Virus record (IMG/VR): IMGVR_UViG_3300030329_003010
Origin: an uncultured virus (IMG/VR IMGVR_UViG_3300030329_003010)
Lineage: Duplodnaviria > Heunggongvirae > Uroviricota > Caudoviricetes
Length of the DNA stretch: 64,000 nucleotides
Direction: 5' to 3' (one strand)
In this document: one piece after another, positions 47,989 to 63,716 of the stretch
Layout of the letters: each line of letters starts with the position of its first letter
How positions within the stretch are numbered: the stretch's first letter is position 1
Notes under the pieces: model-generated
Database searches by the model: none
Seen by the model: only the letters and a program-made list of their open reading frames with translations
What the model was told of the DNA's origin: nothing
Translations under genes and position numbers: made by a program

Positions 47989-47990
47989 TA

Positions 47991-49604: not shown

Positions 49605-49607
49605 TGG

Positions 49608-49835
49608 TCATTCCTCCTCGGTGCGGTCGGAAGTGGCTTCTGCCTCCCCCGACAACGTTTTCTCCACTGACTCCTCGTTATTAAACCCTTCGGTAGCGGC
49701 TTTGTAAAGTCCTATATGTGCTATCATAACATCTCTTGTACAACGCATACAAGCATAATCTCCTCCGAAGATTAAAGTTAGTACGTTGCCTTGGTTACAA
49801 AGACAACATGAGTGATATTGTAATCCTGTTTCCAT
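49608..49835 (-). CDS. Zn-finger protein
   Basis: CCLC...CMRC. Confidence 0.55.
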   Translation of the reverse strand: METGLQYHSCCLCNQGNVLTLIFGGDYACMRCTRDVMIAHIGLYKAATEGFNNEESVEKTLSGEAEATSDRTEEE

Positions 49836-49837
49836 AT

Positions 49838-50143: not shown

Positions 50144-50363
50144 CCCCCATAAGTTCAGTGTGTATAATTTCTGATTTCATTACCTTTACTCGCCAATTCT
50201 CTCTTTGTTCTTCATTAATACGGTTAAGAATACCCAATATACGAACTATCAAAGAAACATCATTATCGTATTTCTCATCAGCATCGTCTTGTTCATCATC
50301 ATAAATAAATCTCAATGTATATTCAGTGTTAAATAAATTCCGTTTCATAATTACCACAACCAT
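50136..50363 (-). CDS. Hypothetical protein
   Basis: Coupled ORF. Confidence 0.55.
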   Translation of the reverse strand: MVVVIMKRNLFNTEYTLRFIYDDEQDDADEKYDNDVSLIVRILGILNRINEEQRENWRVKVMKSEIIHTELMGDD

Positions 50364-50899
50364 CCTAAGATTCTTCGGATTAGACCACTCTTTCTAGGTG
50401 GATTTTCTGCTAATACTAACTCCAACTGCGCTACTATTTCTTCTAGTTCTTCGACTTGAGTTTCTAATACCGTAACCCTATCTTCTAACTCATAGATTTC
50501 ACAATTGTTCTTGATGTCGTCGTAATCCACATAGTCACTAATATCAAAGCCACTAAACACTGATTCCGTAATATCATCTTCGATGTTGTATTTGATTGTA
50601 TCAAAGTCAATGTGGTCATTGACCTGCTCAAGAATATCATCCTCGATTTCATATCTAATATCACAAGTGTCGATGTAATCATTAACATCAATGTAATCGG
50701 ACAAATCCATGTTGCTCATAAATTCCTCGATAAACTCATGTACTTTACCTTCACTAATTAAGTCGTCAGTATCGATGAATTCTAAGAAATTAGTATTCTC
50801 AAGATGACTTAAGATTGATGCTTCAATCATCCCACTATCTATTTCACTCAATACACCTTCAATTATTGCGCTTTCATCAAATTCTATTTCTGCTTCCAT
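50351..50899 (-). CDS. Extremely acidic repeat protein with coiled coil and amphipathic C-terminus
   Basis: Repeated D-L/I-S-D-Y-I/V-D and I-E-D-D-I units; tail GLIRRILGWLW. Confidence 0.75.
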   Translation of the reverse strand: MEAEIEFDESAIIEGVLSEIDSGMIEASILSHLENTNFLEFIDTDDLISEGKVHEFIEEFMSNMDLSDYIDVNDYIDTCDIRYEIEDDILEQVNDHIDFDTIKYNIEDDITESVFSGFDISDYVDYDDIKNNCEIYELEDRVTVLETQVEELEEIVAQLELVLAENPPRKSGLIRRILGWLW

Positions 50900-51112
50900 G
50901 TTTATGCCTCCTCTACAATTATTTCTTCCACATAGTAATCTTTAGCCGGATGTGATTTACCGCCCAAATTTTCACGTTGTTCATCATATAGCCACGCCAT
51001 ATCATATGCGTCTTCTTCTGATTCTGCTTCTACAACAAACGTAAAAGCGACCATCTTTGTTACTTCGTATTCCTTCATATTTATTCCTCACATTCATTCC
51101 TTATAACTCTTT

Positions 51113-51829
51113 TCATAGCGGGTTCGTTAGGCTTTCCTCCACTTTCAAAGAGTATTTGTACGTTTTTTCATCCCAATGATAATCCTCATAAAGACTCATG
51201 TTATCTATCAAATCCGCAACTAATCCATCCATACTTTCTTCGATTTGGTATATTGTGCTTGTGCCTAGCCATGTATCAATAACATATTTGGCCGTCTTTT
51301 TGAGTTGTTGAATTTCATGATAATCGATTCTAGTTATACCATCGTACTTATGAATTTCCTTGATACGGTGCAGCCTCTCGATTTTAGCCTCATCATAGAG
51401 TTCTTCATGTAAACTTTCATTATAGTTTTCATCTTCTGCAAAAACCTTTTCCATTTTAAGATTCTTGTCTGCTTCATCCCTAAGTGAATTATTGGCTTGT
51501 CGTAAAGCCATGTATGCTAAAGCATGGTCACATTCTTCTGCCGATTTCCTAGCGGCATTACAAGTGAAATCTGCTTCGGATAATTTCTCAACAAATTCAA
51601 GAGTGATAGGCCAATAATCTTGTGAAGGCTTAGGGCATTGTATTCTATCATAGAGAGAGAATCGTCTATACGCTTCTTCTATTGAAGTCTGATGTCGAGC
51701 GTCACCGATACTACCTACGCCAGTGACCATACACATTACTCCCATTCCAAACGAAGGAATGAATTCGCGTTGAGCCTCGGTGAACTCTTCAAACTTTTCT
51801 TTATTCTTACATCCTACTCTTAACGGCAT
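51113..51829 (-). CDS. Hypothetical protein
   Basis: About 240-aa ORF; likely start MPLRV after GGAG. Confidence 0.7.
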   Translation of the reverse strand: MPLRVGCKNKEKFEEFTEAQREFIPSFGMGVMCMVTGVGSIGDARHQTSIEEAYRRFSLYDRIQCPKPSQDYWPITLEFVEKLSEADFTCNAARKSAEECDHALAYMALRQANNSLRDEADKNLKMEKVFAEDENYNESLHEELYDEAKIERLHRIKEIHKYDGITRIDYHEIQQLKKTAKYVIDTWLGTSTIYQIEESMDGLVADLIDNMSLYEDYHWDEKTYKYSLKVEESLTNPL

Positions 51830-51830
51830 T

Positions 51831-52037
51831 TTACTCCCCCTCCTCTTCTTCATTTTCCATAGCCACAATCAATTGTTTCATTTCAGAAATTCTCTTCATT
51901 CTACTCCAAACCATATAAGCATTATCGGTCATCGTTTCTAATTCCTCAAGACTATACCTATTCAACAATCTGTTTGGCATCTTTTGTTTCATCCAATACA
52001 TTAATTCGTCTATCCATTTCCATTCAATCGGTTTCAT
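51831..52037 (-). CDS. Hypothetical protein
   Basis: GGAGG RBS. Confidence 0.6.
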   Translation of the reverse strand: MKPIEWKWIDELMYWMKQKMPNRLLNRYSLEELETMTDNAYMVWSRMKRISEMKQLIVAMENEEEEGE

Positions 52038-52038
52038 A

Positions 52039-52497
52039 TCATTCTTCCTCCTGTGTGTTTCCTGTTAAATTGTCCTCTACTTCCGCGCTTATATAGTTTT
52101 CGGTGGCGGGTTCGTTAGGTGTCCAATTGTTTTCTTTGTTCAAATTATAATCGTGTTTATGGCAAAACCAAACCGTACAACCAGCACCGTGCATTTGAAC
52201 CCAACAAGCGACTGATACTCTACTATTAGCATAATCCTGTTTTTCACCTACACTCTCATTCACATTTTCTAAAAATGATTTGAAAGTAGGGAATGTTAAA
52301 TGCAAACTAGGTATATCTTTAGAGTTATAAACACCTGCTATGGCCCTAAAATACTTGAAGTGTTTACCAATCTTTCTTTTTTCTTTTTGTATTAGTTTGG
52401 TTACAAAAACAGGGTCGTCAAACGGACCTTGCCATTTTTCTTCGTTCAAATCTAGTGTGTATGTTATTTTTTCATTCATTTTATTCTTCCTCCTCAA
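52039..52497 (-). CDS. Hypothetical protein
   Basis: ORF track; contains a motif-A promoter near its 3' end. Confidence 0.6.
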   Translation of the reverse strand: MRRKNKMNEKITYTLDLNEEKWQGPFDDPVFVTKLIQKEKRKIGKHFKYFRAIAGVYNSKDIPSLHLTFPTFKSFLENVNESVGEKQDYANSRVSVACWVQMHGAGCTVWFCHKHDYNLNKENNWTPNEPATENYISAEVEDNLTGNTQEEE

Positions 52498-52681
52498 AAT
52501 ATTGTAATATCTTTTTTATTGTATGGTCTGTGAACCTATCTTCCATATGGGCCTTATCAAGGGCGTAAATCAATCTCAATCTTTCGCTAGGTTGTTCTAA
52601 CGCCTTAGTAAAAAGCGATGCTAGTGTATTATACCTATACGATTTCATTTTCATTGTGTTTGCATATTCTTCTAAATCCAT
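52481..52681 (-). CDS. Small protein, paralogue of 53140..53346
   Basis: Shared FTKAL..ERLRLI..LDKAHME..HTIK. Confidence 0.75.
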   Translation of the reverse strand: MDLEEYANTMKMKSYRYNTLASLFTKALEQPSERLRLIYALDKAHMEDRFTDHTIKKILQYFEEEE

Positions 52682-52682
52682 A

Positions 52683-53156
52683 TTACTTCACCTCCAAGCC
52701 GACTATTTCATATCCACTCCATTTAATACAAGCCCTTCTGAAATTATCATCTAAATCGTCAAGGATTGCATAACCATTTTCATCCCTTTCTATAACAAGT
52801 TCTTTGATTTCATCCCACGATAAATCGCTTTCTTTCTGATGCTCTTCTGCTAATGAAACCCAAGGTGGGAATAAACAATTCCGGTCATTATAATTTTGAG
52901 CGCGGTCATCCCATGTATTCCTTTCATAGTCCCATGTCCATTTGTAATTAGGGTCCGATTCTGAATAATGAATGATACCTTTCTTTTCTAAAGACGTAAC
53001 TATCGCTCTCCATTGTTTAGGATTCATGCTACAATATGAAGCCGATACCCACATGACTATACCTGTACCGTCAGTCGTATGGTCTGAACAAACCATGTCC
53101 GTGATAAATTGAAATTCTAGTTTTGTTATTTGTTTCATTTTATTCATCCTCCTCAT
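52683..53156 (-). CDS. Hypothetical protein (wHTH-like N-terminus)
   Basis: MNPKQWRAIVTSLEKKGII. Confidence 0.65.
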   Translation of the reverse strand: MRRMNKMKQITKLEFQFITDMVCSDHTTDGTGIVMWVSASYCSMNPKQWRAIVTSLEKKGIIHYSESDPNYKWTWDYERNTWDDRAQNYNDRNCLFPPWVSLAEEHQKESDLSWDEIKELVIERDENGYAILDDLDDNFRRACIKWSGYEIVGLEVK

Positions 53157-53346
53157 AATATTCTAATATCATTTTAATTGTGTGATTTGAAAACTCACCT
53201 TCCATATGAGCCTTATCAAGAGTGCGAATTAATCTCAATCTTTCCCAAGATTGGTCTAACGCCTTGGTAAAAATCGCGGCCAATTTGTTATACCTAAAAC
53301 TATTCATCTTTCTTCTATGTGCGTGTTCATCTATATCCATATTCAT
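53140..53346 (-). CDS. Small protein, paralogue of 52481..52681
   Basis: See paralogue; GGAGG RBS. Confidence 0.75.
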   Translation of the reverse strand: MNMDIDEHAHRRKMNSFRYNKLAAIFTKALDQSWERLRLIRTLDKAHMEGEFSNHTIKMILEYYEEDE

Positions 53347-53633
53347 TCCTCCTCCAATAATCCCATTACAACCCAATTAGTTTCGTTTGAACCTTCAATC
53401 AAGACGTTACCATCTCCACCGTATTCGCACCATTTCCAATTAGGATAGTGCAATAACATTTTGTGAAAGCATTCTTTGATTGAATCATATTTTTTGATAG
53501 CCTCTCCTAATGTAGCAATCTCATATGATTTATCAGCAACACCTAAACTATAATCCCCATTATCATCTATATGACCATCTTCGGGGCCGTACCAAACAAG
53601 CACATTAAATTCTCTCATTACATATTCACTCAT
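53343..53633 (-). CDS. Hypothetical protein
   Basis: Coupled ORF with GGTGA RBS. Confidence 0.6.
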   Translation of the reverse strand: MSEYVMREFNVLVWYGPEDGHIDDNGDYSLGVADKSYEIATLGEAIKKYDSIKECFHKMLLHYPNWKWCEYGGDGNVLIEGSNETNWVVMGLLEEE

Positions 53634-53796
53634 TCTTCATCACCTTCTCTTGTTTCCGGCATACATTCGGGATGATACCAACGCTTCATTTTATCTCGCT
53701 CCGTTGCTCCAACTTTATCAAAACTGAAATCCTCATAATGTGTAATCGGTTCCCCGCATTTCTTACAGGTGAATGGTGTCCTTCTTAGTCCCATAT

Positions 53797-54084
53797 TTAC
53801 TCCTCTCCTTCTAGGTATTTATAGTTTCCGATAGCGGGTTCGTAAGTTCGTATAATTTGATTCATTTTTCTTAGTATATCAAAAGCATGAATCAATCTAT
53901 CCGTTGCATAATCCATAGCATAATCGTACCCTTCTTCTTCTATCATTCCATCAAGGAAATTATATTGCTCAAGAACTGTTTCACAGACTTCCCAATTGTT
54001 AAGGAAATTCCATTCACCAATCTCAATAGCCAATTCAATCCATCGTTGGTTTTTAGCCAATTCTTCAAAAATTCGCGTTTCCAT
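53797..54084 (-). CDS. Hypothetical acidic protein
   Basis: Coupled ORF. Confidence 0.6.
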   Translation of the reverse strand: METRIFEELAKNQRWIELAIEIGEWNFLNNWEVCETVLEQYNFLDGMIEEEGYDYAMDYATDRLIHAFDILRKMNQIIRTYEPAIGNYKYLEGEE

Positions 54085-54503
54085 TAAGCATCATCTCCTA
54101 GATAAAATTCTTCTTCCAATCCAAATTCTTCTTTCAACATAAATTCTTCTCTCAACATAGTGATTACTCCATCAACAACATCGGGATATTTTTCACTATC
54201 GCGTTTGAAAGTCCAATCAACAATCGGTACGACATCACACCAAGCATCTCCGGTATAATTAACGGCTACTGTTTGTTCATTTCCTGTTTCTTTGTTGAAC
54301 AGTGTTACGTTACAACCCTCAAAATTTTGGGCTTGATACGTCACTTCATCCAAATCAGAAAAGTCAATCGGTCTTACTTCTTCATATCCGTAACCCATCC
54401 AAGTTACCTCAAATCCTCGTTCTCTCATTTCCCAAAAGAAGGCGTATAAATTATCGCCAAACTTAAAGTTACAAATTCTTTCTTTCTTTATTCTTCCTCT
54501 CAT
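54084..54503 (-). CDS. Hypothetical protein
   Basis: Coupled ORF. Confidence 0.65.
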   Translation of the reverse strand: MRGRIKKERICNFKFGDNLYAFFWEMRERGFEVTWMGYGYEEVRPIDFSDLDEVTYQAQNFEGCNVTLFNKETGNEQTVAVNYTGDAWCDVVPIVDWTFKRDSEKYPDVVDGVITMLREEFMLKEEFGLEEEFYLGDDA

Positions 54504-54808
54504 TGTTTCACACTCCTTTTTTCTGCCCTATCGTAAGCATAATCCCATAAATCCTGTACTGAATCCTCTAAGATGTCTCCAGCATTATCATAATAGTCGG
54601 TCCAAACTAATCTTCCTCGACCCAATGATTTTCTGTATAAATCATCTTCTGAAAATCCAACAACAGGTTTGTAAGTTGGCTTCGCCCCAAGATGCGAACC
54701 AGTTTCAACTACACCAATCCAAATAGTAGTATTACTATTTACCGATTGAGGTAAATCATCATTCGCTTCAAAAATTTCTTCTGCTAATTTGTCTATGTTA
54801 TTCGTCAT
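54500..54808 (-). CDS. Hypothetical protein
   Basis: Directly behind a motif-A promoter. Confidence 0.65.
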   Translation of the reverse strand: MTNNIDKLAEEIFEANDDLPQSVNSNTTIWIGVVETGSHLGAKPTYKPVVGFSEDDLYRKSLGRGRLVWTDYYDNAGDILEDSVQDLWDYAYDRAEKRSVKQ

Positions 54809-54862
54809 ATTTAGTCCTCTCCTTTCAACTATTTATACCTTCCGATGGCGGGTCCGTAAGGT

Positions 54863-55204
54863 TTACCAATCCTCCACGATTATACCGATTTGAATTTCTC
54901 TCCAATCCATTATACCACCGGCTACATTCCTATCATAACCCCAAACAGGGATTACAGTGGTGTAGTCCTCAATATCCTCATCATCATCTAGGCCATAGGC
55001 TTCTCGGATTTCATCTTCATCCTCATATTCGGTATATCCACAACAAATTGCGATAGGGTCATATTCAATCTCCTCGCCTATATCGTCTTCTAATTGTTCA
55101 AAGTATTCAAACAAGGCTACTCTTCCCTCATAAGAGAAGTTATCCCCTCGGCCACAAAGCCTAAATCCGTCTATAAATGCGCTTCTAGTAACATGTTCTT
55201 TCAT
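54863..55204 (-). CDS. Acidic early protein
   Basis: FSYEGRVALFEYFEQLEDDIGEEIEYDPIAICCGYTEY. Confidence 0.7.
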   Translation of the reverse strand: MKEHVTRSAFIDGFRLCGRGDNFSYEGRVALFEYFEQLEDDIGEEIEYDPIAICCGYTEYEDEDEIREAYGLDDDEDIEDYTTVIPVWGYDRNVAGGIMDWREIQIGIIVEDW

Positions 55205-55479
55205 TAATAATCACCCTCTTCATAGTATTTTTCAATATGTAATTCTAATTCGTGAATAGCATCGGGATGTATATTCGCTTCATCCTTAGTATAAAGAACC
55301 CCACCAATCATTACTGAATTTTCATGATTCATCGGGTCTTGAAAAACCTCTTCAACATCGGGAGCGTATTCAAGAACCCACTTTTCATATTTTCTTAATC
55401 TACGAACCTGCATCCTAAGATATGCAATATCCTTTACTAATGTTAAAATTTCCTTATTACTCATATTAGTTACCTCCAT
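55204..55479 (-). CDS. Hypothetical protein
   Basis: ORF track. Confidence 0.6.
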   Translation of the reverse strand: MEVTNMSNKEILTLVKDIAYLRMQVRRLRKYEKWVLEYAPDVEEVFQDPMNHENSVMIGGVLYTKDEANIHPDAIHELELHIEKYYEEGDY

Positions 55480-55640
55480 AAAATACCATTACAGGTGAAT
55501 TGCGTTTAATAAATTCCGTTAGGAATGTTGGTTGTGTGTTGCTTTCTTTGCTCATATATACCCATTATCGCCCTACTATATAAACCTGTCGATGGCGGGT
55601 TTGTAAGGTTTTTTCGGCCATATTGTTTTTGTAACCGTAA

Positions 55641-55720
55641 CAAAAAATAAAAAAACTTACGACCCCCTTCTCGGTCCTCCACCGCTACCGGATGAGGGTG
55701 GGCCAAAAAAGGGGCCGTAA
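55641..55720 (-). terminator. Long RNA hairpin followed by a U-tract
   Basis: 18 contiguous pairs (4 G-U) on the minus strand, then UUUUUUUAUUUUUU; downstream of ORF 55734. Confidence 0.6.
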
Positions 55721-55733
55721 AAGGTGAATGTAA

Positions 55734-56027
55734 TTAGTATATAGCGAATCCAATAAAAGGAGTAATCCTTTCATCGGGAAAATTTGTAATATACCAAGCG
55801 CGAGTCATCTTGTCGATTCTTTCTAGCAAATTCATATATCTTGAGCCTACACCGTATTTTATGCCTCGTATTTCTACCCAAAACATATGTCTATCATAAC
55901 AAGCATGGACTATTTCACTAAACTCATCTTTTGTTTTACATTTAGACAATGCTATTCTCACAGTTTTTTCCCAACCATCAAAAGTTCGGGAGTTGTAAAT
56001 GTAATCTACGGGTTTCATCTTACTCAT
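55734..56027 (-). CDS. Hypothetical protein (leaderless, motif-A promoter)
   Basis: ATG about 22 nt after the TATAAATA box. Confidence 0.65.
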   Translation of the reverse strand: MSKMKPVDYIYNSRTFDGWEKTVRIALSKCKTKDEFSEIVHACYDRHMFWVEIRGIKYGVGSRYMNLLERIDKMTRAWYITNFPDERITPFIGFAIY

Positions 56028-56310
56028 ATATACCAATTATCGCTATACTATTTATAGTTTGTGATAGCGGGTTCGTAAGGTGTTTTTGTAACCCTAACTT
56101 TTTATTTTACCAACTTAAATGTTTTTGTAACCCTAACTTTTTGTAGCGGTTTTTTAGGATTTTGTTTTTGTAACCGTAAGTTTCGGCTGGAGAAAGCGGG
56201 TTACAAAAACTGTTTTTGTAACCGGCGCGAGCGAGCAAAAAAAATAGCGCGAAAAAAAACGGGTTACAAAAACTTATAGAAGTCTGTAACAATGCGTTAC
56301 AAAAACTCTC

Positions 56311-56531
56311 TTAGGGTTTCGCTCGGAGTGAGGGATTTACCGACAAACGAAGCGAGGATAGTTGTTCCCTCGTTGGGTATGTAAGAATGGGTTACAAAAA
56401 CTCTCTTATGTTTTTTTGGTTTCCAATGCACGCTCTCGGAGCCAATCCCTCGATACGCTAGAGCAAGGTGCTAAACTCGCCCTTGCGGGAAATCCCGCCT
56501 TTTTGTAAAGCCCCTTTCGGAGCCATTGGAA
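56311..56531 (-). ncRNA. Candidate multi-stem structured RNA
   Basis: Closing stem TTCCAATG/CATTGGAA, GNRA hairpin, further stems, 8-nt long-range complementarity. Confidence 0.4.
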
Positions 56532-56555
56532 TGTGATAGTGGGTTACAAAAACTT

Positions 56556-56996
56556 TTACTTCTTTCTTCTTACGTGATATACTGATGTGACCCTATGCCT
56601 TCGGCCACTTGTCCAGTCATGGATTTGACCTGCTCGGACACACAAAACATGACTTCTAGTGAAAACAATATACACGCCACGTTTCGGGATAATTCCGGCC
56701 CGTTGCATGGCTCCGATGGTCATAGACGAACCGAATTTTTTCCTCCAAAGAGTCGGACTCATTTTATGATTACCTTCAACCGGCTCGGTTACAAAATCTA
56801 AATCCTTCATCGCTCTTAGCATTCTTGATTCACAAAGACCTTTTCGATAACTTCTACCACGAAGGGCGCATTTACCATGAGCAGTTTCATAATTTACGCC
56901 GGTAGCAATCGCAACCGCTTTGACCGTACAATCATTCATTTCGCCCCATTTATCAGAGGCTTTAGACATCTTCTTGAACAATTTTGATTCACTCAT
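56556..56996 (-). CDS. Papain-like / C39-like cysteine peptidase-fold protein (putative)
   Basis: NDCTVKAVAIATG (Cys), SHVLCV (His), IHDW (Asp). Confidence 0.6.
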   Translation of the reverse strand: MSESKLFKKMSKASDKWGEMNDCTVKAVAIATGVNYETAHGKCALRGRSYRKGLCESRMLRAMKDLDFVTEPVEGNHKMSPTLWRKKFGSSMTIGAMQRAGIIPKRGVYIVFTRSHVLCVRAGQIHDWTSGRRHRVTSVYHVRRKK

Positions 56997-57286
56997 ATGG
57001 TTCTACCCTCCAGACCACAGTTTTTACAACGATAACGGAGACTGTATGGAATTCTTTCAAGATGAAGTCTTGAACAACAAAGATAGTTTTCTGCACTCAT
57101 ATTTACTCCTCTCCTTCTTTACTTATAACACTTTCGATAGCGGGTTCGTAAGGTGAATTTCATCCATATAATCATAATCTAAACCTACCATTATATCGCC
57201 CCCTTCAATCTCAAATTTTTGCACTCTCTACATTTGCATTTTGCTGGATTTCCGGCACACATTTCATCTAAAATATCTAGTATCAT

Positions 57287-57478
57287 TCAATAATCATCTC
57301 CATTAAAGCCCAATTTTTCATGAATGAGATATAGAATATAATCTACTTGTTCAAATTCAAAAGGGTGAACACTAACTGTATCGTAATTAACGAATTTTAA
57401 GATTTCACAACATGCATTTTCAAGTCTTGATATTTGCTCATCCGACATTTTTTCTAATTTTCTCTTTATTAAATTCAT
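57287..57478 (-). CDS. Hypothetical protein
   Basis: ORF track. Confidence 0.55.
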   Translation of the reverse strand: MNLIKRKLEKMSDEQISRLENACCEILKFVNYDTVSVHPFEFEQVDYILYLIHEKLGFNGDDY

Positions 57479-57590
57479 GAAGCCACCACCTTTTTAGTTT
57501 TACAATGAGGGCAATTTTTATCTTTACAGGAATCGGGCCAAAGAGTGACCATCAAATCATGACCAATTTTCATTTCGGGTTGTTCGCTCA

Positions 57591-57908
57591 TTAAAATTTC
57601 ACCCCCAACCATTGTTCAATAACATAGTCATCATAAAATTGGCCGGATTGGTCAAAATATTCCCAAGGTAAATTTACGTTATTTTCTGGCGGTATGAAAT
57701 CAGTATAACCTCTATCTTTTAGGAAATTGACTAATAACCAATTTTCTAACTCTTCAAGATTCATTGAATCAAGATACAGTGAATAAAATTTGTACAATTG
57801 AAGTATTCTAGTTTTATATTTCCCAAAATCGACCCATTCCTCTTTCGTGAAATCTTTTTCAAAGGATTTCGCATGAGCAATTTTGTATGGAGTTAATTTA
57901 GTAATCAT
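57591..57908 (-). CDS. Hypothetical protein
   Basis: GGAGG RBS. Confidence 0.6.
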   Translation of the reverse strand: MITKLTPYKIAHAKSFEKDFTKEEWVDFGKYKTRILQLYKFYSLYLDSMNLEELENWLLVNFLKDRGYTDFIPPENNVNLPWEYFDQSGQFYDDYVIEQWLGVKF

Positions 57909-57909
57909 T

Positions 57910-58143
57910 TCAATTCCTCCTCCTCAATAACGGCATCTCGTTCTCATATTCAACGGTTCTTATCATCATTTCAAGAATCATATCTTCATAAGTTCTAGTT
58001 TGAAGTACGATATTTCCATTTTCATCCCTCAATGTCCAATACAATCTTATTTTACCATCGTAAGGATTTTCTAATTCTTCTCGGCAAATTTCAAGACCCA
58101 TACATTCATGTTTAACAATTCGATTTTCATAATTACTGTACAT
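57910..58143 (-). CDS. Hypothetical protein
   Basis: Coupled ORF. Confidence 0.6.
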   Translation of the reverse strand: MYSNYENRIVKHECMGLEICREELENPYDGKIRLYWTLRDENGNIVLQTRTYEDMILEMMIRTVEYENEMPLLRRRN

Positions 58144-58302
58144 TTAATAATCCGCTCCATTAAATCCAAGTTCTGCAATTTCATTCAAAACCCAATCCGA
58201 TAGGGGTGGGTAAGAATTCAATCGCTCCTTTCTTTCATTCAATATTCTTTCAATTTTAGCAATTACCTTGGGGCAACGCTTTGGTAGGCTTCTTCCGCTC
58301 AT
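58144..58302 (-). CDS. 52-aa first gene of the leftward early unit
   Basis: Hand translation; leaderless ATG after motif A and TATA; ends LGFNGADY like ORF 57287 (LGFNGDDY). Confidence 0.55.
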   Translation of the reverse strand: MSGRSLPKRCPKVIAKIERILNERKERLNSYPPLSDWVLNEIAELGFNGADY

Positions 58303-59252
58303 AATCAACAATTAGCAACCTAGTATTTATATATATCGGTAGCGGGTTTGTAAGGTCATACTTATGAAGTTTTTGTAACCCGATAGTTCGGGGGAGGATT
58401 GAATCTTTTCTACTATAAAGTATGACGCGCTCACGCGAGTATAGCGTTTTTGATTTTGTAACCCATTTTTGTAACCTGTTTGAGAGTGATAATATATTTC
58501 AAGTTTTTGTAACCGGATATTTTCTGAACTGTTTTTGTAACCCCGAAAAGACCTACTGCCTCATTCACACTTGCTTTACTCTTTGCACTCGGTTTACTTT
58601 TTACACTAACTTTGTTTTTGTAACCGATGGTTGGGGGTCGATTTTGCTCTCTCTGTGGGGTTACAAAAACACTTTTTGGGTTACAAAAACACGTTTTGGG
58701 TTACAAAGACAGGTTACAAAAACACGCTTTTGTAACCCGAAAATCGTTAGACTGGTCGGCATTTTTTAATCGTCAAAAAATAACTACGATTTGCCCCTAC
58801 TTTATCGAGATTTTAGCACTTTTTTGAATTTCACTTTCAGTTTTTTCTGAAAGTGAACCTGAAAGTGTTTACGTCTAGCGTTTTTTAAATTTTTGTAACT
58901 GTTTTTGTAACCGGTAAAATGTTATTTTTTTGTTTTTGTAACTTGTTTTTGTAACCGACCCTTACTATATATTAATTTAGCAAACATTATATACTATGAA
59001 TGGTTTTTGTAACCGGACCCAAATCGCCAGCATATCGGAGCCGTTTTCTTGAAGCATCCACTTACAAGTATATAAACAATTGGTTTTCGCCCCCCCACCA
59101 TTGTTTTTGTAACCCACAATGTTTTTGTAACCGCGCTGGTGTAAAAAATGCACTAAATTACTAAAAAAAACCTAAAAGGTTACAAAAACAGAAAAAACCT
59201 ACAAATGCACAAATCAACGAACATACTATAAGGGAAGGGGGTATCTCGTAAC

Positions 59253-59720
59253 ATGAGCAAAGAATACGAGCGAGAAAATAAGCCGAAGTGGTGCAAGCCA
59301 TGTAAGAAGACCAAGAGGGGCATCATTGTTGATGATTGCTTCATGTGTGTTGATTGTGCAACCGAAGAGGGTTATACAGTCATCAAGAAAAGCAACGCTA
59401 ACAAGACCTCATTCACATCAAAAACAGGTAAGAAGTCAAGAGCAAAGCAGTTGAATGATATAGACGCTATGCACCGAGCAAATCAAGCCCGAAGGGTCAA
59501 GGCTACCCAAAGAGCAAAGATGGCCGCAGAGAGGCGTAAAATCGCACTTATGGAGGGTATGGTAGGCACTGATGGACTCGCTAACCATTTCCGTATGAAT
59601 GGAGTGTGTAAGTGCTGCAAGGGTCGCCTTCCTGTTTCTCAAGCCGCATATGTTCACCGTGACGCTTTTGTAACCCCGAACAAAGTTCCAACCGTACTAT
59701 GTAGGGGGTGCGTTGAATGA
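59253..59720 (+). CDS. Basic protein with N- and C-terminal Zn fingers; first rightward early gene
   Basis: CKPC/CVDC and CKCC/CRGC; leaderless after TACTATAA. Confidence 0.7.
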   Translation: MSKEYERENKPKWCKPCKKTKRGIIVDDCFMCVDCATEEGYTVIKKSNANKTSFTSKTGKKSRAKQLNDIDAMHRANQARRVKATQRAKMAAERRKIALMEGMVGTDGLANHFRMNGVCKCCKGRLPVSQAAYVHRDAFVTPNKVPTVLCRGCVE

Positions 59721-59959
59721 AAACTCCATTAATTACCCAAGAGGTTTTTGTAACCGAAAAAATTGCTTGGAGAGATTTTGAAAACAAAGACCTTGGTAAA
59801 ATTGTCGTTAAACAAATCACCTACGGGCCGCCCGTAGTTATTGGTTATGTGGTCGAAGATGATGAAGGAATGGAGAAGAAGGTAGTTCACTACAAGAACG
59901 CCAAGAAGTCGATATACAAAGAAGATTCGCCGTCATATTTGAATGAGGTATTCGGATGA
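59717..59959 (+). CDS. Hypothetical protein
   Basis: ATGA overlap; motif B follows the stop. Confidence 0.65.
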   Translation: MKTPLITQEVFVTEKIAWRDFENKDLGKIVVKQITYGPPVVIGYVVEDDEGMEKKVVHYKNAKKSIYKEDSPSYLNEVFG

Positions 59960-60336
59960 GTTTTTGTAACCGGAGGTAATAAGTATGTGTAGAATTTGTA
60001 AACAATGGGTGAAAGGTTATTCTTATGAAAATGGCTCCTTTAGAGGTCAACCTAAATTTTGGGATGGTATCTGTACAAATTGCGGTAGAGATGAAAGTTG
60101 ATTTTGTAACCGTTTTTGTAACCTATCTCTGTACGTTTTTGTAACTCTGTATCTCTCTGTATCTCTGTACGTTTTTGTAACCGTTTTTGTAACCTGTGCA
60201 ATTTTGTTTTTGTAACCGAAGGCGCGTAGCGCGGACCCCGATACCACTTGAGATGCAGGTATATAATCATATGTTTTTGTAACCCATAAGGGTGCTTTTC
60301 CGAAACATATATATGCTGTGGTCCCCTCCCATTAAA

Positions 60337-60445
60337 TAGAGGAGGAGGAAGCGAGAACAGACCACTTGCGGAAGGTCGAAATTGAAAGGAGGATAGCACC
60401 GAGTAAAGGAGAGCCGTAAGAAGAACAGTCATAAGCAGTTTTTGT
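60337..60445 (+). ncRNA. Candidate purine-rich small RNA with multiple GGA/GGAGG motifs
   Basis: BRE/TATA CCGAAACATATATAT at 60300-60314; no ATG downstream; ends at a T-tract. Confidence 0.35.
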
Positions 60446-60822
60446 AACCTAGTCCCACACCCCCCCGTAACCAATAAGACCTAACTACTTGCTTTTGTAA
60501 CCGGCTGCTATACCAACCACGGCGAAGTCACTGGGCTACGGGATAAGGGGGGGCGTGAAACTTTTTTTGTAACCCAGTTTTTGTAACTGGGTTATTTTTT
60601 TTGTAACCTAGAATGTTTTTGTAACCCACACTCTCTGTGTGTTTTTGTAACCTAATTTCTCTCTGTGTGTTTTTGTAACCCACACTCTCTGTTTGTTTTT
60701 GTAACCCAAGACGCGAAGCGTAAAAAATGTTTTTGTAACCCATTATGTACAAAAACAAAATTGTTTTTGTAACCTATAACTACAATCCAAACATATATAA
60801 GGGGACACCCTATCCGACAAAT

Positions 60823-61302
60823 ATGGGTACTAGATGTAACATACGAATAACAGATGAACGAGATGAATTATGGTTTTACCGTCATTATGACGGTTATCCC
60901 GATATGATTATACCGGATTTGGCCCCGTTAATGGAAGCCTTGCAGAATGGTCATGTTCGCGATAATGTTGGCCAATTTAGCGGTTGGTTAATAGTAATCG
61001 GAAATAAGGATATGTGGAGCAATAGAAGCCTCCCAACAGGTAGAATGCGCGAGGGTGGTTATTCAGCATGGAAATGCGGAAACTATGAGCCAACAACAGG
61101 CAGACACGGAGACATAGACTTCCTTTATCATATCGACCTAGTTCAAAAAACTATGACGGTTTACAACGGATGGACCGGAGAAGAAGAAGATTTGGCTAAA
61201 TTTTTTCCCCATGAAGTTATAGAGTGTTATCCCTATATCTCCTATCTTGATTTTGTAACCAACGAAAATTCTTATGGATATGAAGGTTGTAATTGGTCGT
61301 GA
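60823..61302 (+). CDS. Conserved viral protein with Y-x-H-x-DGYP motif
   Basis: MGTRCNI...FYRHYDGYP; start moved to the leaderless ATG 60823. Confidence 0.75.
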   Translation: MGTRCNIRITDERDELWFYRHYDGYPDMIIPDLAPLMEALQNGHVRDNVGQFSGWLIVIGNKDMWSNRSLPTGRMREGGYSAWKCGNYEPTTGRHGDIDFLYHIDLVQKTMTVYNGWTGEEEDLAKFFPHEVIECYPYISYLDFVTNENSYGYEGCNWS

Positions 61303-61463
61303 TTTTGTAACCGTTTTTGTAACTCTCTCTCTTTAGTTTTTGTAACCAAAACTTTTTTTGTTTTTGTAACCGAATATTTCCTAGCACTGGCTACAAAAAC
61401 AATTGTTTTTGTAACCCCATAACTTAACGAAACATATATAAGCGGAGGCTACATCTCACAAAT

Positions 61464-61655
61464 ATGGAGCATTACCGTAACCATATGGTATCGAACAGGA
61501 GATACCACAAAGAACGACGTTTGAACGCCAAGAAGCAGAAGAAAGCACTAGAGAAGGCCAAAGAGTCCACTCAAGTAGCCATGAAATTCGCATTCGCTAC
61601 ACGAAGCATATGCCTAAAATACGGCTACCGCTTAGAAAAGGAGGTTGAAGTTTAA
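61464..61655 (+). CDS. Small basic protein
   Basis: Leaderless after TATA. Confidence 0.65.
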   Translation: MEHYRNHMVSNRRYHKERRLNAKKQKKALEKAKESTQVAMKFAFATRSICLKYGYRLEKEVEV

Positions 61656-61852
61656 TGTGCGAAAAATGTAAAAACGACGATGGATTGAAAGAGCATTTGA
61701 GGATTAAAGATGAGTCACTAACTAACGGCTTGATTTATTGGTTCTGTCCCGATTGTGGTAGAATAGACAAACCATATCATGATAGATTCAATAAGTTAGG
61801 GTTCGGAGTATGGATATGGGGTTCGCCCGATTGGATGATTCATGATGAATGA
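61655..61852 (+). CDS. Zn-finger microprotein
   Basis: CEKC...CPDC; GGAGG RBS. Confidence 0.65.
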   Translation: MCEKCKNDDGLKEHLRIKDESLTNGLIYWFCPDCGRIDKPYHDRFNKLGFGVWIWGSPDWMIHDE

Positions 61853-61972
61853 TTTTGTAACCCTTTCTCTGTATGTTTTTGTAACCGAGGGATAAATATG
61901 TTTTTCATTTTTGTTTTTGTAACCGGACTACTCATTCCAAACCATTATATACCCGCACCACTTCGTAGGGGT

Positions 61973-62146
61973 ATGAGCGAACAACACGACGCACACGTTA
62001 GAACATGGAAGCAATTTTGGAATGAATACTTCAATAATATGATGGATGAAGAAATATCAGAAGAAGAAGAAAGGAAAATGATGGAAGCAGACCTAGCATT
62101 AGACCGCCACCTACAAAGAATAGAAGATTCTTACGGAGAGTATTGA
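61973..62146 (+). CDS. Small acidic protein
   Basis: Start moved to the leaderless ATG 61973. Confidence 0.6.
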   Translation: MSEQHDAHVRTWKQFWNEYFNNMMDEEISEEEERKMMEADLALDRHLQRIEDSYGEY

Positions 62147-62147
62147 A

Positions 62148-62339
62148 ATGAGCAAACCATTGTTTTTTGTAACCCCCAACGCACCTAAAGGTCGGGCCTG
62201 TATTTGGACAGACAAAGCCCAACGCACTAGAGACGCACAAATCAAGGCACTAATCCCATTGGCCCATAATGGCAACGTAGAGGCCATGCAAGCCCTTCGA
62301 CTTGTCCTTTGGACTAATGTAGTAGCGGGTGCAGTTTAA
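62148..62339 (+). CDS. Small hypothetical protein
   Basis: GGAG RBS; motif B follows the stop. Confidence 0.6.
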   Translation: MSKPLFFVTPNAPKGRACIWTDKAQRTRDAQIKALIPLAHNGNVEAMQALRLVLWTNVVAGAV

Positions 62340-62414
62340 GTTTTTGTAACCAGAGGATAAATCACGACTATTATATACTGCCTACTACTAGGGTCAATCA
62401 AGAAGGGTGCGAAT

Positions 62415-62690
62415 ATGGATATAGAAGTAAAATATAACGGAAAGAGTTGGGAGCCGAGAGTAACAAAATACAAGGTAGTTATGGGTAACTTTCATGGCCG
62501 AATGGATAAACACAACGGCCAGTTCGTTCATCTTGATTTGTTTTTGAGTCTTGGGGAACAAGATTTGCAGGTTTATTATGGAAATATAGTCGCTAATAAC
62601 AACAAAGAATTGAAGGAAATAATCGAGGAAAAGATAAGCGAGTTCAAGCCTTTTGTAACTAAGTTATATGAGTTTATGATGAACTTGTGA
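62415..62690 (+). CDS. Hypothetical protein
   Basis: TATA at 62370; motif B follows the stop. Confidence 0.65.
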   Translation: MDIEVKYNGKSWEPRVTKYKVVMGNFHGRMDKHNGQFVHLDLFLSLGEQDLQVYYGNIVANNNKELKEIIEEKISEFKPFVTKLYEFMMNL

Positions 62691-62927
62691 TTTTGTAACC
62701 GGCGTTTTTGTAACCCTCTTTGTAACCGGTGTTTTTGTAACTCGTTTTCTTTTTTTTGTTTTTGTAACCCATGTTTTGTTAATCCTTGTGGGTACAAAAA
62801 CATTTTTGTTTTTGTAACCCTAGTTATTTTTTTGCTCGCGCAACGGTTACAAAAGCGTTGTTGGGTTACAAAAACAATATTATTGGGTAATCGTTGGGTT
62901 TATATACGAACACCCTATCCGACAAAC

Positions 62928-63113
62928 ATGAACGTACGACTATCGAACGACAAAGGAATGACTGTCCATTACATCAAGGCCCGAAGGTTGCTTATCAGAA
63001 CCAATAACGGCGTACGAGATGTGACGACATTAGACGACCAACAAGCCCACGCTTTTGAAACCTTAGTGCTTCAAAACCGCTTCAAGGGCTGCACTATTGA
63101 GGTATTAGCATGA
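62928..63113 (+). CDS. Small hypothetical protein
   Basis: Start moved to the leaderless ATG 62928. Confidence 0.6.
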   Translation: MNVRLSNDKGMTVHYIKARRLLIRTNNGVRDVTTLDDQQAHAFETLVLQNRFKGCTIEVLA

Positions 63114-63538
63114 ACGAAAGAGCATACCACACGAATGAAATTATTGACTTGACCATTGAAAACGGCGGAGGCACTTGGCTAAGAGTAGGCATGGGTGTTT
63201 TTGTAACCCCGAATTCTAATGATAGGTATGTCTTAGCCGCTTATGATGGCGACGGCTTAGTTATCCCTAATTTCATGAGTCAACCAATTGATTTTGTAAC
63301 CCAACTTGTTGATTGGTTTGCATCACAACAAAACAGCCGAATATACACAAACAGTGGTTTTTGTAACCAAGTTGTAAACGCTCATTTTGGAACTTGGGTT
63401 CGTGGTGATGATTTAGTGCTTGATATTGTGGAACTAGAAAATGATTTTGTAACCGCGATGGAAAAAGCGAGAGAGCGAAATCAAAATGCAATCTTTGACC
63501 TAGTAGAGATGAAAGAGGTTTTTGTAACCGAGGAGTAA
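63110..63538 (+). CDS. Possible SAM-lyase-like (T3 SAMase/DUF3293-related) protein
   Basis: GTW...LVLDIV...AMEKARERNQNAIFDL pattern. Confidence 0.4.
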   Translation: MNERAYHTNEIIDLTIENGGGTWLRVGMGVFVTPNSNDRYVLAAYDGDGLVIPNFMSQPIDFVTQLVDWFASQQNSRIYTNSGFCNQVVNAHFGTWVRGDDLVLDIVELENDFVTAMEKARERNQNAIFDLVEMKEVFVTEE

Positions 63539-63716
63539 ATGCTTTTGTAACCGAGGTTTTTGTAACCTCTCTCTCTTTGTTTTTGTAACCAAGAGATTTG
63601 TGTTTTTGTAACCCGTTTGTTTTTGTAACTTAACGTCGTGGCCACAAAAACAAAATTGTTTTTGTAACCTAAACGATAATCGCTACCTTTATATACGCAC
63701 ACCCTATCCCGTAAAC

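What the first reader, a model, noticed from the sequence alone, without database searches (positions are those of the whole stretch)
55620..63670. Early region saturated with about 80 copies of one 11-12 bp motif (GTTTTTGTAACC) that partitions genes into promoter-ORF cassettes
Seen: about 80 copies by hand count in 8 kb, against only a handful in the other 55 kb. They are not a tandem satellite: spacers are variable and often unique, and some pairs are 11 bp apart (about one helical turn, e.g. 60101-60123, 60171-60194). Clusters fill the intergenic gaps, giving a repeated unit [motif cluster]-[TATA]-[1-2 small ORFs]-[motif cluster]. Inference: this is a dedicated cis-acting system on the likely first-expressed DNA. 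Candidate roles are an array of sites for a cooperatively binding/spreading protein (viral or host), a decoy sponge for a host regulator or defence protein, histone-excluding phased A-tracts, or microhomology points for shuffling anti-host gene cassettes. I know of no description of such a system in archaeal tailed viruses.
Basis: partly seen in the sequence, partly recalled or inferred. Interest (0 to 1): 0.88.

Follow-up and report, generated by a model that had tools for sequence, protein, structure and literature searches.

The report
Lineage-specific motif arrays flanking viral gene cassettes
A marine tailed virus, probably of archaea, packs about 90 copies of one 12-base word around the promoters of its small unknown genes, and related viruses do the same with their own versions of the word, which points to a private gene-control code whose reader is still unknown.

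Summary
GTTTTTGTAACC (up to 1 mismatch) occurs 81 times in 55620-63670 and 10 times in the other 56 kb; shuffles give 0.49. It is not a satellite or a misassembly.

- **Orientation:** 76 of 91 copies point with transcription.
- **Placement:** 71 of 81 lie in the 40% of the region that is non-coding. A copy starts within -1 to +3 nt of the stop codon of 8 genes. Another starts 59-60 nt before the ATG at 4 promoters, 17-19 bp upstream of the TATA box. A relative sharing only about 4 of 32 early genes keeps these placements.
- **Dialects:** 28 of 40 terminase relatives carry such arrays, in about a dozen versions sharing TTGTA. Versions differ even between viruses with 98-99% identical terminase.
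- **Cassette turnover:** gene gain and loss between relatives often ends at a copy.

Best reading (about 0.5): arrays of half-sites for a sequence-specific regulator of one promoter class, which also serve as recombination points. Closest known: mycobacteriophage stoperators, T4 PeSLs, the halovirus HGTV-1 promoter motif. I rate it a new variant of a known kind.

The parts
58369..58737 (+). Motif array at the divergent point, 11 copies (++++++----+). No co-oriented gene lies upstream.
58901..59189 (+). Array of 7 copies (++++++-) upstream of the first + strand gene.
59253..59720 (+). 155-aa protein with two CxxC..CxxC zinc ribbons and a long basic helix. Weak candidate reader. Holds a coding copy (GCTTTTGTAACC, 59664).
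59717..60101 (+). Two small ORFs (80 aa; 38 aa with CxxC pairs). Copies lie at 59744 (coding), 59960 (1 nt after the stop) and 60100 (overlaps TGA).
60100..60284 (+). Array of 7 copies, all +, with contiguous pairs 12 bp apart.
60438..60774 (+). Array of 11 copies, all +. Includes a 26-28 bp local tandem (60614-60708). The last copy, 60763-60774, starts 60 nt before the ATG.
60793..61302 (+). TATA box (60793-60800) plus a 159-aa ORF (60823-61302). The TGA overlaps the copy at 61301; a coding copy lies at 61249.
61249..61416 (+). Array of 7 copies (+++++-+). The inverted pair 61389(-)/61405(+) ends 17 bp before the TATA at 61434-61441.
61464..61852 (+). Two-gene unit (63 aa and 65 aa). The TGA overlaps the copy at 61851.
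61851..61924 (+). Array of 3 copies. The last one, 61913-61924, is 60 nt before the ATG at 61973; TATA at 61944-61951.
61973..62351 (+). Two-gene unit (57 aa and 63 aa). A coding copy lies at 62163. The copy 62340-62351 starts 1 nt after the stop and is the left junction of the cassette that the relative L009 lacks.
62352..62715 (+). Cassette of 364 bp: promoter (TATA 62370-62377), a 91-aa ORF (62415-62690) and two copies. It is absent from the ~90% relative, whose junction is a single shared copy.
62689..62875 (+). Array of 8 copies (++++-+--), including the inverted pair 62790(-)/62808(+).
62899..63538 (+). TATA (62899-62906) plus a two-gene unit (61 aa and 142 aa). The 142-aa ORF holds 5 copies, 4 of them in frame as [VD]FVT. 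The next copy starts 3 nt after the stop.
63541..63669 (+). Non-coding part of the last array in the window (6 copies). The last copy, 63658-63669, is 59 nt before the ATG at 63717; TATA at 63688-63695.
56082..56553 (.). Arrays in the - strand block. Five - copies lie downstream of gene 56556-56996, the first 3 nt after its stop. Four + copies lie upstream of the promoter of gene 55734-56036. 56199(-)/56212(+) form a perfect palindrome.
55625..55636 (+). Single copy 17 bp from a class II promoter element (55590-55607).
40804..58354 (-). Span holding a second, single-copy promoter motif (CTTACGAACCCGCTATCG, 10 copies, all on the - strand). This is a different promoter class for the leftward gene block.
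   Evidence: context

Best explanation
The 12-13 bp word tGTTTTTGTAACC is the half-site of an operator or upstream activating site. A sequence-specific DNA-binding regulator reads it and controls one class of TATA-box promoters, most of them apparently leaderless. These promoters drive small genes of unknown function.

Each cassette has one copy at a fixed place, starting 59-60 nt before the ATG and ending 17-19 bp upstream of the TATA box. At 3 of 7 promoters (one more lies about 80 nt further upstream) it is paired with an inverted copy, as expected for a dimer. Further head-to-tail copies, at a spacing equal to the site length, fill the gap back to the preceding stop codon.

Inferred, not shown:
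- The extra copies give cooperative, high-occupancy binding that switches the whole module on or off.
- Because they all point with transcription, they may also stop or insulate read-through from the gene upstream, as stoperators do.
It has not been identified.

As a by-product, the many identical copies act as recombination points at which cassettes are gained, lost or swapped.
For: Shown:
1. Enrichment and strand bias. 81 copies inside versus 10 outside, against 0.49 expected. 76 of 91 are co-oriented with the gene blocks (binomial p 5e-11).
2. Fixed promoter geometry. The motif start lies 59, 59, 60 and 60 nt before the ATG at four promoters and 75 nt at a fifth. The motif end is 17-19 bp from the TATA at five. 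The TATA starts 27-30 nt before the ATG at six of the seven (45 nt at 62415), so those transcripts are probably leaderless.
3. Persistence across gene turnover. A lineage whose terminase is 83-84% identical shares 4 of 32 early genes at 39-49% identity. It still has 60+16 copies of the same word (L016), motif-to-ATG distances of 57-61 nt, and stop-to-motif offsets of -1/+1.
4. Arrays stand where nothing upstream needs terminating: 18 copies at the divergent point, 58369-59189. They are absent downstream of the last gene of the block in L025, L047 and L054.
5. Other lineages put a palindromic pair of their own word 8-25 nt upstream of a TATA-like box.
6. Dialects. 28 of 40 terminase relatives with at least 3 kb of downstream DNA have a 9-mer present 10 or more times, always on the same strand. 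The structural side of the same loci gives at most 5. About a dozen versions share TTGTA.
7. The word changes between viruses with 98-99% identical terminase (L079/L086 versus L091/L103), and nearly the whole early module changes with it.
8. Preferred head-to-tail spacing equals the site length: 12 bp here, 14 bp (20 cases) in L054, 15 bp (8 cases) in L071.
9. The paired word is not a host-genome feature. Only 5 single matches, all in unrelated bacteria, were found among 185,579 species genomes.

Candidate reader. The zinc-ribbon/basic family (window:59253-59720) sits at the edge of the largest array in every lineage examined. It is the only module protein shared across dialects (hhalign probability 85%, E 5.7e-6; reciprocal HMM hits 8e-5 and 4e-6).
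Against: - No binding protein is identified. Pfam, PHROGs, the protein Atlas, Foldseek and VIA-align gave nothing informative for the candidate.
- The zinc-ribbon candidate fails two natural tests. L053 keeps it at 94-95% identity to L054/L055 but has no arrays at all (0 copies). L047 and L065 share one dialect, yet their proteins are only 60% identical, no closer than proteins of different dialects.
- A virus-encoded activator cannot act on the very first genes expressed unless it is packaged in the virion. Whether this region is early is itself inferred.
- The fixed motif-to-ATG distance may partly reflect common descent of a duplicated ~70-bp promoter module rather than independent constraint. 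The spacers are recognisably similar.
- 10 copies lie inside genes and come and go between relatives.
- No RNA data were available.
Confidence: 0.5

Rival explanations
1. The copies are first of all recombination sites that define mobile promoter-gene cassettes, like T4 PeSLs or, with a dedicated enzyme, like integron attC sites. Their abundance and uniformity come from copying and exchange rather than from binding a regulator.
For: - One clean event: window 62352-62715 (promoter, 91-aa gene and two copies) is absent from L009, which has a single copy at the junction.
- 9 of 27 homology-block ends lie inside a copy (null 16%), and 22 of 27 lie within 30 bp (null 52%).
- A copy abuts the stop codon of 8 genes here and of 4 in the distant lineage.
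- Coding copies lie near the protein ends, in frame as xFVT.
- Gene content turns over almost completely while the word stays.
Against: - No integrase or recombinase family was found among the 110 ORF queries scanned with Pfam.
- 5-11 copies per gap is far more than exchange needs.
- Block ends are not independent (62351 recurs in 4 relatives), and some are contig ends.
- Gaps are almost all array, so an intergenic breakpoint is near a copy by default.
- Strand bias and the fixed distance to the TATA are not explained.
Confidence: 0.15
2. The copies are transcription terminators or insulators read by the host machinery. The T5 run on the sense strand is an archaeal oligo-T termination signal, repeated to make termination complete between independently promoted cassettes.
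For: - T5 lies on the sense strand in 76 of 91 copies.
- The first copy starts -1 to +3 nt from the stop codon of all 7 complete + strand units and of gene 56556-56996.
- Outside the arrays, T5 runs are rarer than A5 runs on the sense strand: 22 versus 45, and 29 versus 41.
- That archaeal RNA polymerase terminates at oligo-T is established knowledge, recalled here.
Against: - The strictly conserved GTAACC part has no role in oligo-T termination.
- Other dialects have only T2-T4 (ATTTGTAGTAA, AAATTGTAACC).
- 18 copies stand at the divergent point with no co-oriented gene upstream.
- No copies follow the last gene of the block in 3 of 3 lineages checked.
- 10 co-oriented copies sit inside genes.
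- The stop-overlapping variant TGATTTTG has only T4.
Confidence: 0.12
3. The arrays bind or exclude a host protein: a decoy or sponge for a host regulator, nucleoid or defence protein, or sequence that keeps host chromatin off the first-expressed DNA. The dialects would then follow differences between hosts.
For: - Genes expressed first must work with host factors only.
- About 90 sites per genome would titrate a scarce protein.
- No viral reader was found.
Against: - Dialects differ between viruses with 98-99% identical terminase. Natural array-less relatives exist (L053).
- A-tract-based exclusion fails for dialects with T2-T4.
- The fixed promoter geometry is not needed for a sponge.
- Single copies in host genomes could not be searched. 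Only the paired pattern was scanned, and it found none.
Confidence: 0.1
4. The arrays belong to DNA replication, partition or packaging: iterons of an origin, a centromere-like site, or a recognition region for the packaging enzyme next to the terminase gene.
For: - The cumulative GC-skew minimum and the strand switch lie at about 56-58 kb, beside the largest arrays.
- The region lies between the replication genes and the terminase gene.
- Arrays of short direct and inverted repeats occur at plasmid centromeres and origins (recalled).
Against: - Copies are spread over 9-10 kb and tied one by one to promoters and stop codons.
- GC skew simply follows gene direction through the whole window.
- No origin-binding or partition protein family was found beside the arrays.
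- The copy nearest the terminase is about 1.5 kb from its stop, with a convergent gene in between.
Confidence: 0.08

Closest known systems
Operator/stoperator sites of Cluster A mycobacteriophages (L5 gp71-type immunity repressor)
   Same: - Asymmetric 12-13 bp site in many copies over the genome, in promoters and in short intergenic gaps.
- Orientation strikingly tied to the direction of transcription (PMC9283540, passages read; here 76 of 91).
- Site versions differ between related phages (PMC6550527, search listing only).
   Different: - There: 20-30 mostly single sites, a known monomeric HTH repressor, bacterial temperate phages.
- Here: about 90 copies in arrays of up to 11 concentrated in 9-10 kb, inverted pairs at promoters, archaeal-type TATA promoters, no repressor or integrase found.
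PeSL (promoter-early stem-loop) cassettes of T4-type phages
   Same: Small composite regulatory sequences flank variable genes of unknown function and serve as points of genetic exchange (PMC4122927, abstract read; PMC2839356, search listing). Here an inverted pair plus TATA sits at cassette borders, and breakpoints fall at copies.
   Different: A PeSL is one promoter/terminator unit per border with a bacterial promoter. Here a short word is repeated 3-11 times per gap, and each lineage has its own version.
Conserved TATA-plus-inverted-repeat motif of halovirus HGTV-1
   Same: An archaeal tailed virus in which most ORFs of one genome arm are preceded by a conserved motif with a TATA-like box and an inverted repeat, proposed to act in transcription control and shuffling (PMC3950731, passage read). 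Checked here: 15 exact copies of the top 12-mer, 14 of them one per gap between 128.7 and 140.5 kb.
   Different: HGTV-1 has one ~60-bp unit per gap and no arrays. Here there are 5-11 copies of a 12-mer per gap, plus copies at stop codons and inside genes.
Intergenic repeats of halovirus HF2
   Same: Repeats in intergenic regions of an archaeal tailed virus that carry promoters and are conserved in position among relatives (PMC8707807, abstract and section 3.1).
   Different: HF2 has seven 58-bp and two 29-bp repeats that are themselves the promoters. Here the word lies upstream of a separate TATA box and is about ten times more numerous.
Arrays of short contiguous repeats bound cooperatively by small repressors (omega protein heptads of plasmid pSM19035; MetJ met-boxes). 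Recalled, not checked in any call.
   Same: Contiguous direct or inverted copies of a short site upstream of promoters, at a spacing equal to the site length.
   Different: Those arrays hold 2-10 copies at a few promoters and are read by ribbon-helix-helix proteins. No such protein was detected here.

Membership tests
Stoperator/operator system (Cluster A mycobacteriophages) | Asymmetric site of about 13 bp present in many copies | tested here: met
   12-13 bp non-palindromic consensus; 91 copies
Stoperator/operator system (Cluster A mycobacteriophages) | Orientation correlated with the direction of transcription | tested here: met
   76 of 91 co-oriented with the gene blocks; same strand bias in 28 of 28 array-bearing relatives
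Stoperator/operator system (Cluster A mycobacteriophages) | Read by a phage-encoded immunity repressor (HTH plus stoperator domain) | tested here: inconclusive
   No HTH repressor family reached a curated cut-off among the 110 ORF queries. The candidate zinc-ribbon protein is unrelated and only weakly supported.
Stoperator/operator system (Cluster A mycobacteriophages) | Binding blocks transcription elongation in one orientation | not testable with these tools
   Needs reporter or in vitro assays
PeSL-type mobile regulatory cassette | Composite promoter plus stem-loop at the borders of variable genes | tested here: inconclusive
   An inverted pair lies just upstream of the TATA at 3 of 7 + strand promoters (60745-60774, 61389-61416, 63641-63669); a fourth pair (62790-62819) lies about 80 nt upstream of its TATA; the other promoters have a single copy
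PeSL-type mobile regulatory cassette | Insertions, deletions and replacements between close relatives end in the element | tested here: met
   62351|62704 junction; 9 of 27 block ends inside a copy against 16% expected, ends not independent
Tandem satellite / minisatellite | Head-to-tail copies of one unit with constant period | tested here: not met
   Only short local arrays of 2-3.6 copies; spacers variable
Archaeal oligo-T terminator | Run of 5 or more T on the sense strand just downstream of a gene | tested here: inconclusive
   Met for this dialect and for 8 gene ends. Not met in dialects with T2-T4. Arrays also stand where no gene lies upstream.
Integron-like cassette array | Site-specific integrase next to the array and attC-type imperfect palindromes of 57-141 bp (definition recalled) | tested here: not met
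   No integrase or recombinase family in the window. The element is a 12-mer in multiple copies, and each cassette has its own promoter.
Replication origin with iterons | Clustered initiator sites beside an unwinding element and an initiator gene | tested here: inconclusive
   The GC-skew minimum is nearby, but copies are dispersed over 9-10 kb and no initiator family was found
Magrovirus (virus of Poseidoniales) | Sequence relationship to described magrovirus genomes, or a host link | tested here: inconclusive
   Terminase and PolB are at most 27% identical to named phage records. Five relative contig numbers are absent from the supplements of PMC10160649. An archaeal host is inferred only from TATA promoters, most of them apparently leaderless, and from RFC, ERCC4 and PolB genes.

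The most novel reading that the evidence does not exclude
Each early module of this abundant marine virus family carries a private regulatory code: its own 11-15 bp word in 50-90 copies plus a matching, still unknown reader. The code works as an immunity or exclusion system between co-circulating viruses. A resident or first-arriving virus would silence, or refuse to activate, the cassette region of any virus using the same word. Conflict between viruses would then drive the rapid switching of words seen between genomes with 98-99% identical terminase. If so, immunity groups of uncultivated archaeal viruses could be read straight from metagenomes, and the arrays would mark the anti-host gene arsenal.
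Probability: 0.2. Interest if true: 0.85.

Novelty: new variant of a known kind. Interest (0 to 1): 0.62.

Why it matters
Almost nothing is known about how tailed viruses of uncultivated marine archaea control their genes. Here one cis-acting code can be read from sequence alone:
- it marks one promoter class and the borders of about a dozen cassettes of unknown genes;
- it recurs in 28 of 40 relatives examined;
- it exists in about a dozen versions that switch between near-identical genomes.

This gives a concrete bait for finding the regulator: a 12-mer, with natural array-less and dialect-swapped relatives as controls. It also gives a way to delimit the fast-evolving, probably anti-host, gene module in metagenomic contigs, and a test case for whether stoperator-like or PeSL-like logic exists in archaeal viruses.

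Tried and rejected
- **Whole genome:** none is held for this window.
- **RNA evidence:** no RNA holder was listed for the region, so transcript ends could not be examined.
- **RNA genes:** no tRNA in the window. Rfam on 52000-64000 gave two chance-level rows far below the gathering scores.
- **Literature:** the exact word and its complement occur in 11 unrelated papers only. Two magrovirus papers have 0 hits for repeat/motif/intergenic/promoter. A third mentions only terminal repeats.
- **Earlier notes of this scan:** none for this genome.
- **Protein families:** the 30 small ORFs of the region gave no Pfam hit above a curated cut-off. PHROGs gave four families of unknown function.
- **155-aa candidate reader:**
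  - 20 unnamed clusters in the large protein collection.
  - Only 6 representatives in the exhaustive search.
  - Only 3 already known loci from the alignment scan.
  - Atlas hits all below 0.9.
  - AlphaFold model pLDDT 78, with no Foldseek match at E <= 0.001. VIA-align matched only the long helix, at Z <= 5.6.
  - Homodimer prediction: no verdict.
- **Other reader candidates rejected:**
  - The 61-152 aa protein right after the terminase gene in 29 loci. It is absent from the window lineage and nearly identical across three dialects.
  - The large protein next to the terminase end. It is hypervariable within one dialect: 34% identity at 92% terminase identity.
  - The 63-aa protein 62148-62339. 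It looks like a helical repeat and also occurs with another dialect.
- **T5 runs on the sense strand in other dialects:** only a weak excess, not decisive.
- **Host link:** not obtained.

Full report
**What is there.** The word GTTTTTGTAACC, allowing one mismatch, occurs 91 times in the 64-kb window. 81 copies (53 exact) lie in 55620-63670 and 10 elsewhere, against 0.49 expected from shuffles. The extended consensus is tGtTTTTGTAACC[c/g].
- Tandem Repeats Finder sees only short local arrays of 2-3.6 copies, so this is not a satellite.
- The closest pairs are contiguous, 12 bp start to start, not 11.
- Eight DNA runs from two studies hold 92-97% of the sampled words of the region.
- In each of the four runs laid, one independently built contig covers 59136-64000 (58961-64000 in one) with two differences. 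57429-59165 breaks into short overlapping pieces with variants, which looks like strain diversity.
- I therefore see no sign of misassembly, with the usual caveat that these are short-read contigs.

**Context.** The window is most of the genome of a tailed virus.
- It encodes terminase, portal, tail tube and tape measure genes, a family B DNA polymerase, an RFC-like clamp loader, and ERCC4 and PD-(D/E)XK nucleases.
- In relatives the motif region is followed by DNA matching window 64-3632. The map is therefore circular or permuted, about 65 kb, and the window lacks roughly 1.5-2 kb. That missing stretch holds more arrays and two more genes.
- Genes left of about 58330 run leftward and genes right of it run rightward. 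GC skew follows gene direction throughout.
- An archaeal host is inferred only from promoter architecture and the replication genes.
- The magrovirus label is unverified. Terminase and polymerase are at most 27% identical to any named phage record.

**Anatomy.** Of the 8051 nt, 3233 are non-coding. These hold 67 copies, with 4 more overlapping a stop codon by two bases; 10 copies are fully coding.
- *Promoters.* The rightward genes form at least seven complete units, each with its own TATA box. The TATA starts 27-30 nt before the ATG in six of the seven (45 nt at 62415), so most transcripts are probably leaderless.
- *Rule 1, upstream copy.* A copy starts 59, 59, 60 and 60 nt before the ATG of genes 61464, 63717, 60823 and 61973, and 75 nt before 62415. 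It ends 17-19 bp before the TATA in all five.
- *Inverted pairs.* At three of the seven promoters that copy forms an inverted pair with an A-rich copy 4-6 bp away (61389/61405, and degenerate halves at 60745 and 63641). A fourth pair (62790/62808) lies about 80 nt upstream of its TATA. Perfect palindromes also occur at 56199/56212 and 58712/58726.
- *Rule 2, stop-codon copy.* The first co-oriented copy starts -1 to +3 nt from the stop codon of the last gene of all seven complete rightward units and of the leftward gene 56556-56996. In four cases the stop is the TGA of tGATTTTGTAACC.
- *Strand.* 76 of 91 copies point with transcription.
- *Coding copies.* These are mostly read in frame as [VDA]FVT, one frame being closed by the TAA inside the word. 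They come and go between relatives.

**Relatives with the same word.** A scan of viral contigs for two exact copies within 4-30 bp found 12 contigs. Ten carry dense arrays of the same word next to a related terminase gene.
- One lineage (L016, L006, L023, L001) has a terminase only 83-84% identical in protein and about 75% in DNA. It shares 4 of my 32 curated early genes at 39-49% identity.
- It nevertheless has 60 sense and 16 antisense copies in L016, motif-to-ATG distances of 57-61 nt, and stop-to-motif offsets of -1 or +1. The placement rules therefore outlive the genes.

**Relatives with other words.** Among the 80 best terminase relatives (65-99% identity), 40 hold at least 3 kb downstream of the terminase gene.
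- 28 of these have a 9-mer present 10 or more times, always with the T-rich form on the strand opposite the terminase. The structural side of the same loci gives at most 5. Several loci come from near-identical viruses, so these are not 28 independent cases.
- The words form about a dozen dialects sharing TTGTA, for example TGTTTTGTAGTT, TAATTTGTAGTAA, TaTTTTGTAGGGTT, tGTTTTGTAGGCAgc, aaaaTTGTAACC and TTTTTGTCC.
- The architecture [array]-[small ORF]-[array] recurs in L047, L054 and L071, with a palindromic pair of the local word 8-25 nt before a TATA-like box.
- Preferred head-to-tail spacing equals the site length: 12 bp here, 14 bp (20 cases) in L054, 15 bp (8 cases) in L071. In L065 the unit is an inverted pair (11 cases). 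This argues for side-by-side binding rather than helical phasing.
- Dialects do not follow the terminase tree. L030 (94% terminase identity to the window) uses TTTTTGTCC. L079/L086 and L091/L103 (98-99% identical to each other) use different words and have almost entirely different early genes.
- L053 is 97-98% identical in terminase to L054/L055 but has no arrays. It has eight single copies of another promoter-linked word instead.
- The paired word is absent from 185,579 species genomes, apart from five single matches in unrelated bacteria.

**What it most likely does.** The evidence fits a sequence-specific DNA-binding protein that controls these promoters. That evidence is the fixed place upstream of the TATA box, the inverted pairs, the contiguous packing, the strict conservation of all 12 bases, and the lineage-specific versions.
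- A position 17-19 bp upstream of the TATA is where archaeal activator sites usually lie, whereas repressor sites usually overlap the TATA or the start site. This rests on recalled general knowledge. The sign of regulation is open, because a protein spreading over an array could also occlude the promoter.
- Strand bias and the copy at each stop codon suggest a second, polar role in stopping read-through, as shown for stoperators (PMC9283540).
- A pure terminator reading is weakened on four counts:
  - 18 copies stand at the divergent point with no co-oriented gene upstream.
  - No copies follow the last gene of the block in L025, L047 and L054.
  - Some dialects have only T2-T4 runs.
  - The non-T part of the word is invariant.

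**Recombination.** Against the ~90% relative, window 62352-62715 is missing and the junction is a single shared copy. That segment holds a promoter, a 91-aa gene and two copies. A second segment (59730-60101) is replaced between copies. Over six relatives, 9 of 27 homology-block ends in 58400-63700 fall inside a copy (16% expected), and 22 of 27 fall within 30 bp (52% expected). The ends are not independent, some are contig ends, and the gaps are mostly array anyway. I therefore take this as real but secondary: many identical 12-mers are bound to recombine.

I could not identify it.
- *For the candidate.* The best candidate is a 155-aa protein (59253-59720) with two zinc ribbons and a long basic helix.
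  - It is the first rightward gene after the two largest arrays.
  - It occurs in every same-word contig that covers that place and in no other-word locus by tblastn.
  - A 190-229 aa family at the edge of the largest array in other dialects is distantly related to it (hhalign probability 85%, E 5.7e-6; reciprocal HMM hits).
  - That family diverges to 62-64% identity where the dialect changes between near-identical backbones.
- *Against the candidate.* L053 keeps it at 94-95% identity without any array. L047 and L065 share a dialect at only 60% protein identity. Structure and family searches were uninformative.
- Three other candidates were examined and dropped.

**Comparison with what is known.**
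- The nearest mechanistic analogue is the operator/stoperator system of Cluster A mycobacteriophages: asymmetric 13-mers, more than 20 sites, orientation tied to transcription (PMC9283540).
- The nearest architectural analogues are T4-type PeSLs (PMC4122927 abstract) and the HGTV-1 motif (PMC3950731). In HGTV-1 I found 15 exact copies of the top 12-mer, one per gap, each an inverted repeat between TATA-like boxes.
- HF2 intergenic repeats are promoters, present in nine copies (PMC8707807).
- Three things are new here: the density (5-11 copies per gap, about 90 per genome), the two placement rules, and the family of dialects that switch between near-identical genomes.
- My searches for the word and in three papers on Poseidoniales viruses found no description of it.

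**Verdict.** The interpretation as a dedicated cis-acting system is supported. The best mechanism is regulator-site arrays with a side role in cassette exchange (about 0.5). I rate it a new variant of a known kind, with interest 0.62.

Noticed in passing
window 40804-58354, - strand: A second promoter-linked word, CTTACGAACCCGCTATCG (up to 3 mismatches). There are 10 copies against 0.02 expected, all on the - strand. The six I read in context (53829-58354) lie directly upstream of a TATA box of a leftward gene. It is always single-copy, so the virus has at least two promoter classes.
   Followed up: partly
window 52039-53376, - strand: Tandem duplication of a two-gene unit. ORFs 52481-52681 and 53140-53376 are clear paralogues. 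The stretches upstream of 52039-52497 and 52683-53156 are nearly the same.
   Followed up: no
window 56787, 59664, 59744, 61249, 62163, 63197-63518; also 17408, 25463, 32645, 35581, 47005, 52399: Copies inside genes are mostly in one frame and read [VDAI]FVT. Unrelated small proteins, and also the DNA polymerase, therefore share this peptide. One other frame is closed by the TAA inside the word.
   Followed up: partly
L025 11861-12970 (-), just beyond the window's end; counterparts in L013, L028, L006, L001, L047, L054, L071: The last and largest gene of the cassette block (about 290-420 aa, cysteine-rich) converges on the terminase gene and evolves very fast. It is 34% identical between viruses with 92% identical terminase. 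No family hit.
   Followed up: partly
29 relative loci, 3-103 nt after the terminase stop (e.g. L047 3854-4102): A small basic protein (61-152 aa) follows the terminase gene in other lineages. From its sequence pattern I guessed a winged-helix fold; no family hit supports this. It is absent from the window lineage.
   Followed up: partly
L053 downstream of terminase: A natural array-less relative. Its terminase is 97-98% identical to array-bearing L054/L055. Its cassette region is different and carries eight single copies of CCTCGCAAGCGT about 20 nt after a TATA-like box. It would be a useful negative control.
   Followed up: partly
window 56300-56540: A 240-nt G+C-richer non-coding stretch between two sets of copies, with no convincing ORF. 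Rfam finds nothing there.
   Followed up: no
window 57429-59165: In all four runs laid, the independent contigs break into short overlapping pieces with many variant letters here, and one contig skips parts. This suggests several strains differing around the divergent point.
   Followed up: no
window 1-64 and 63671-64000 versus L009/L012: The window's end and start are joined in relatives through about 2 kb that the window lacks. The window is a cut of a circular or permuted map of about 65 kb.
   Followed up: partly
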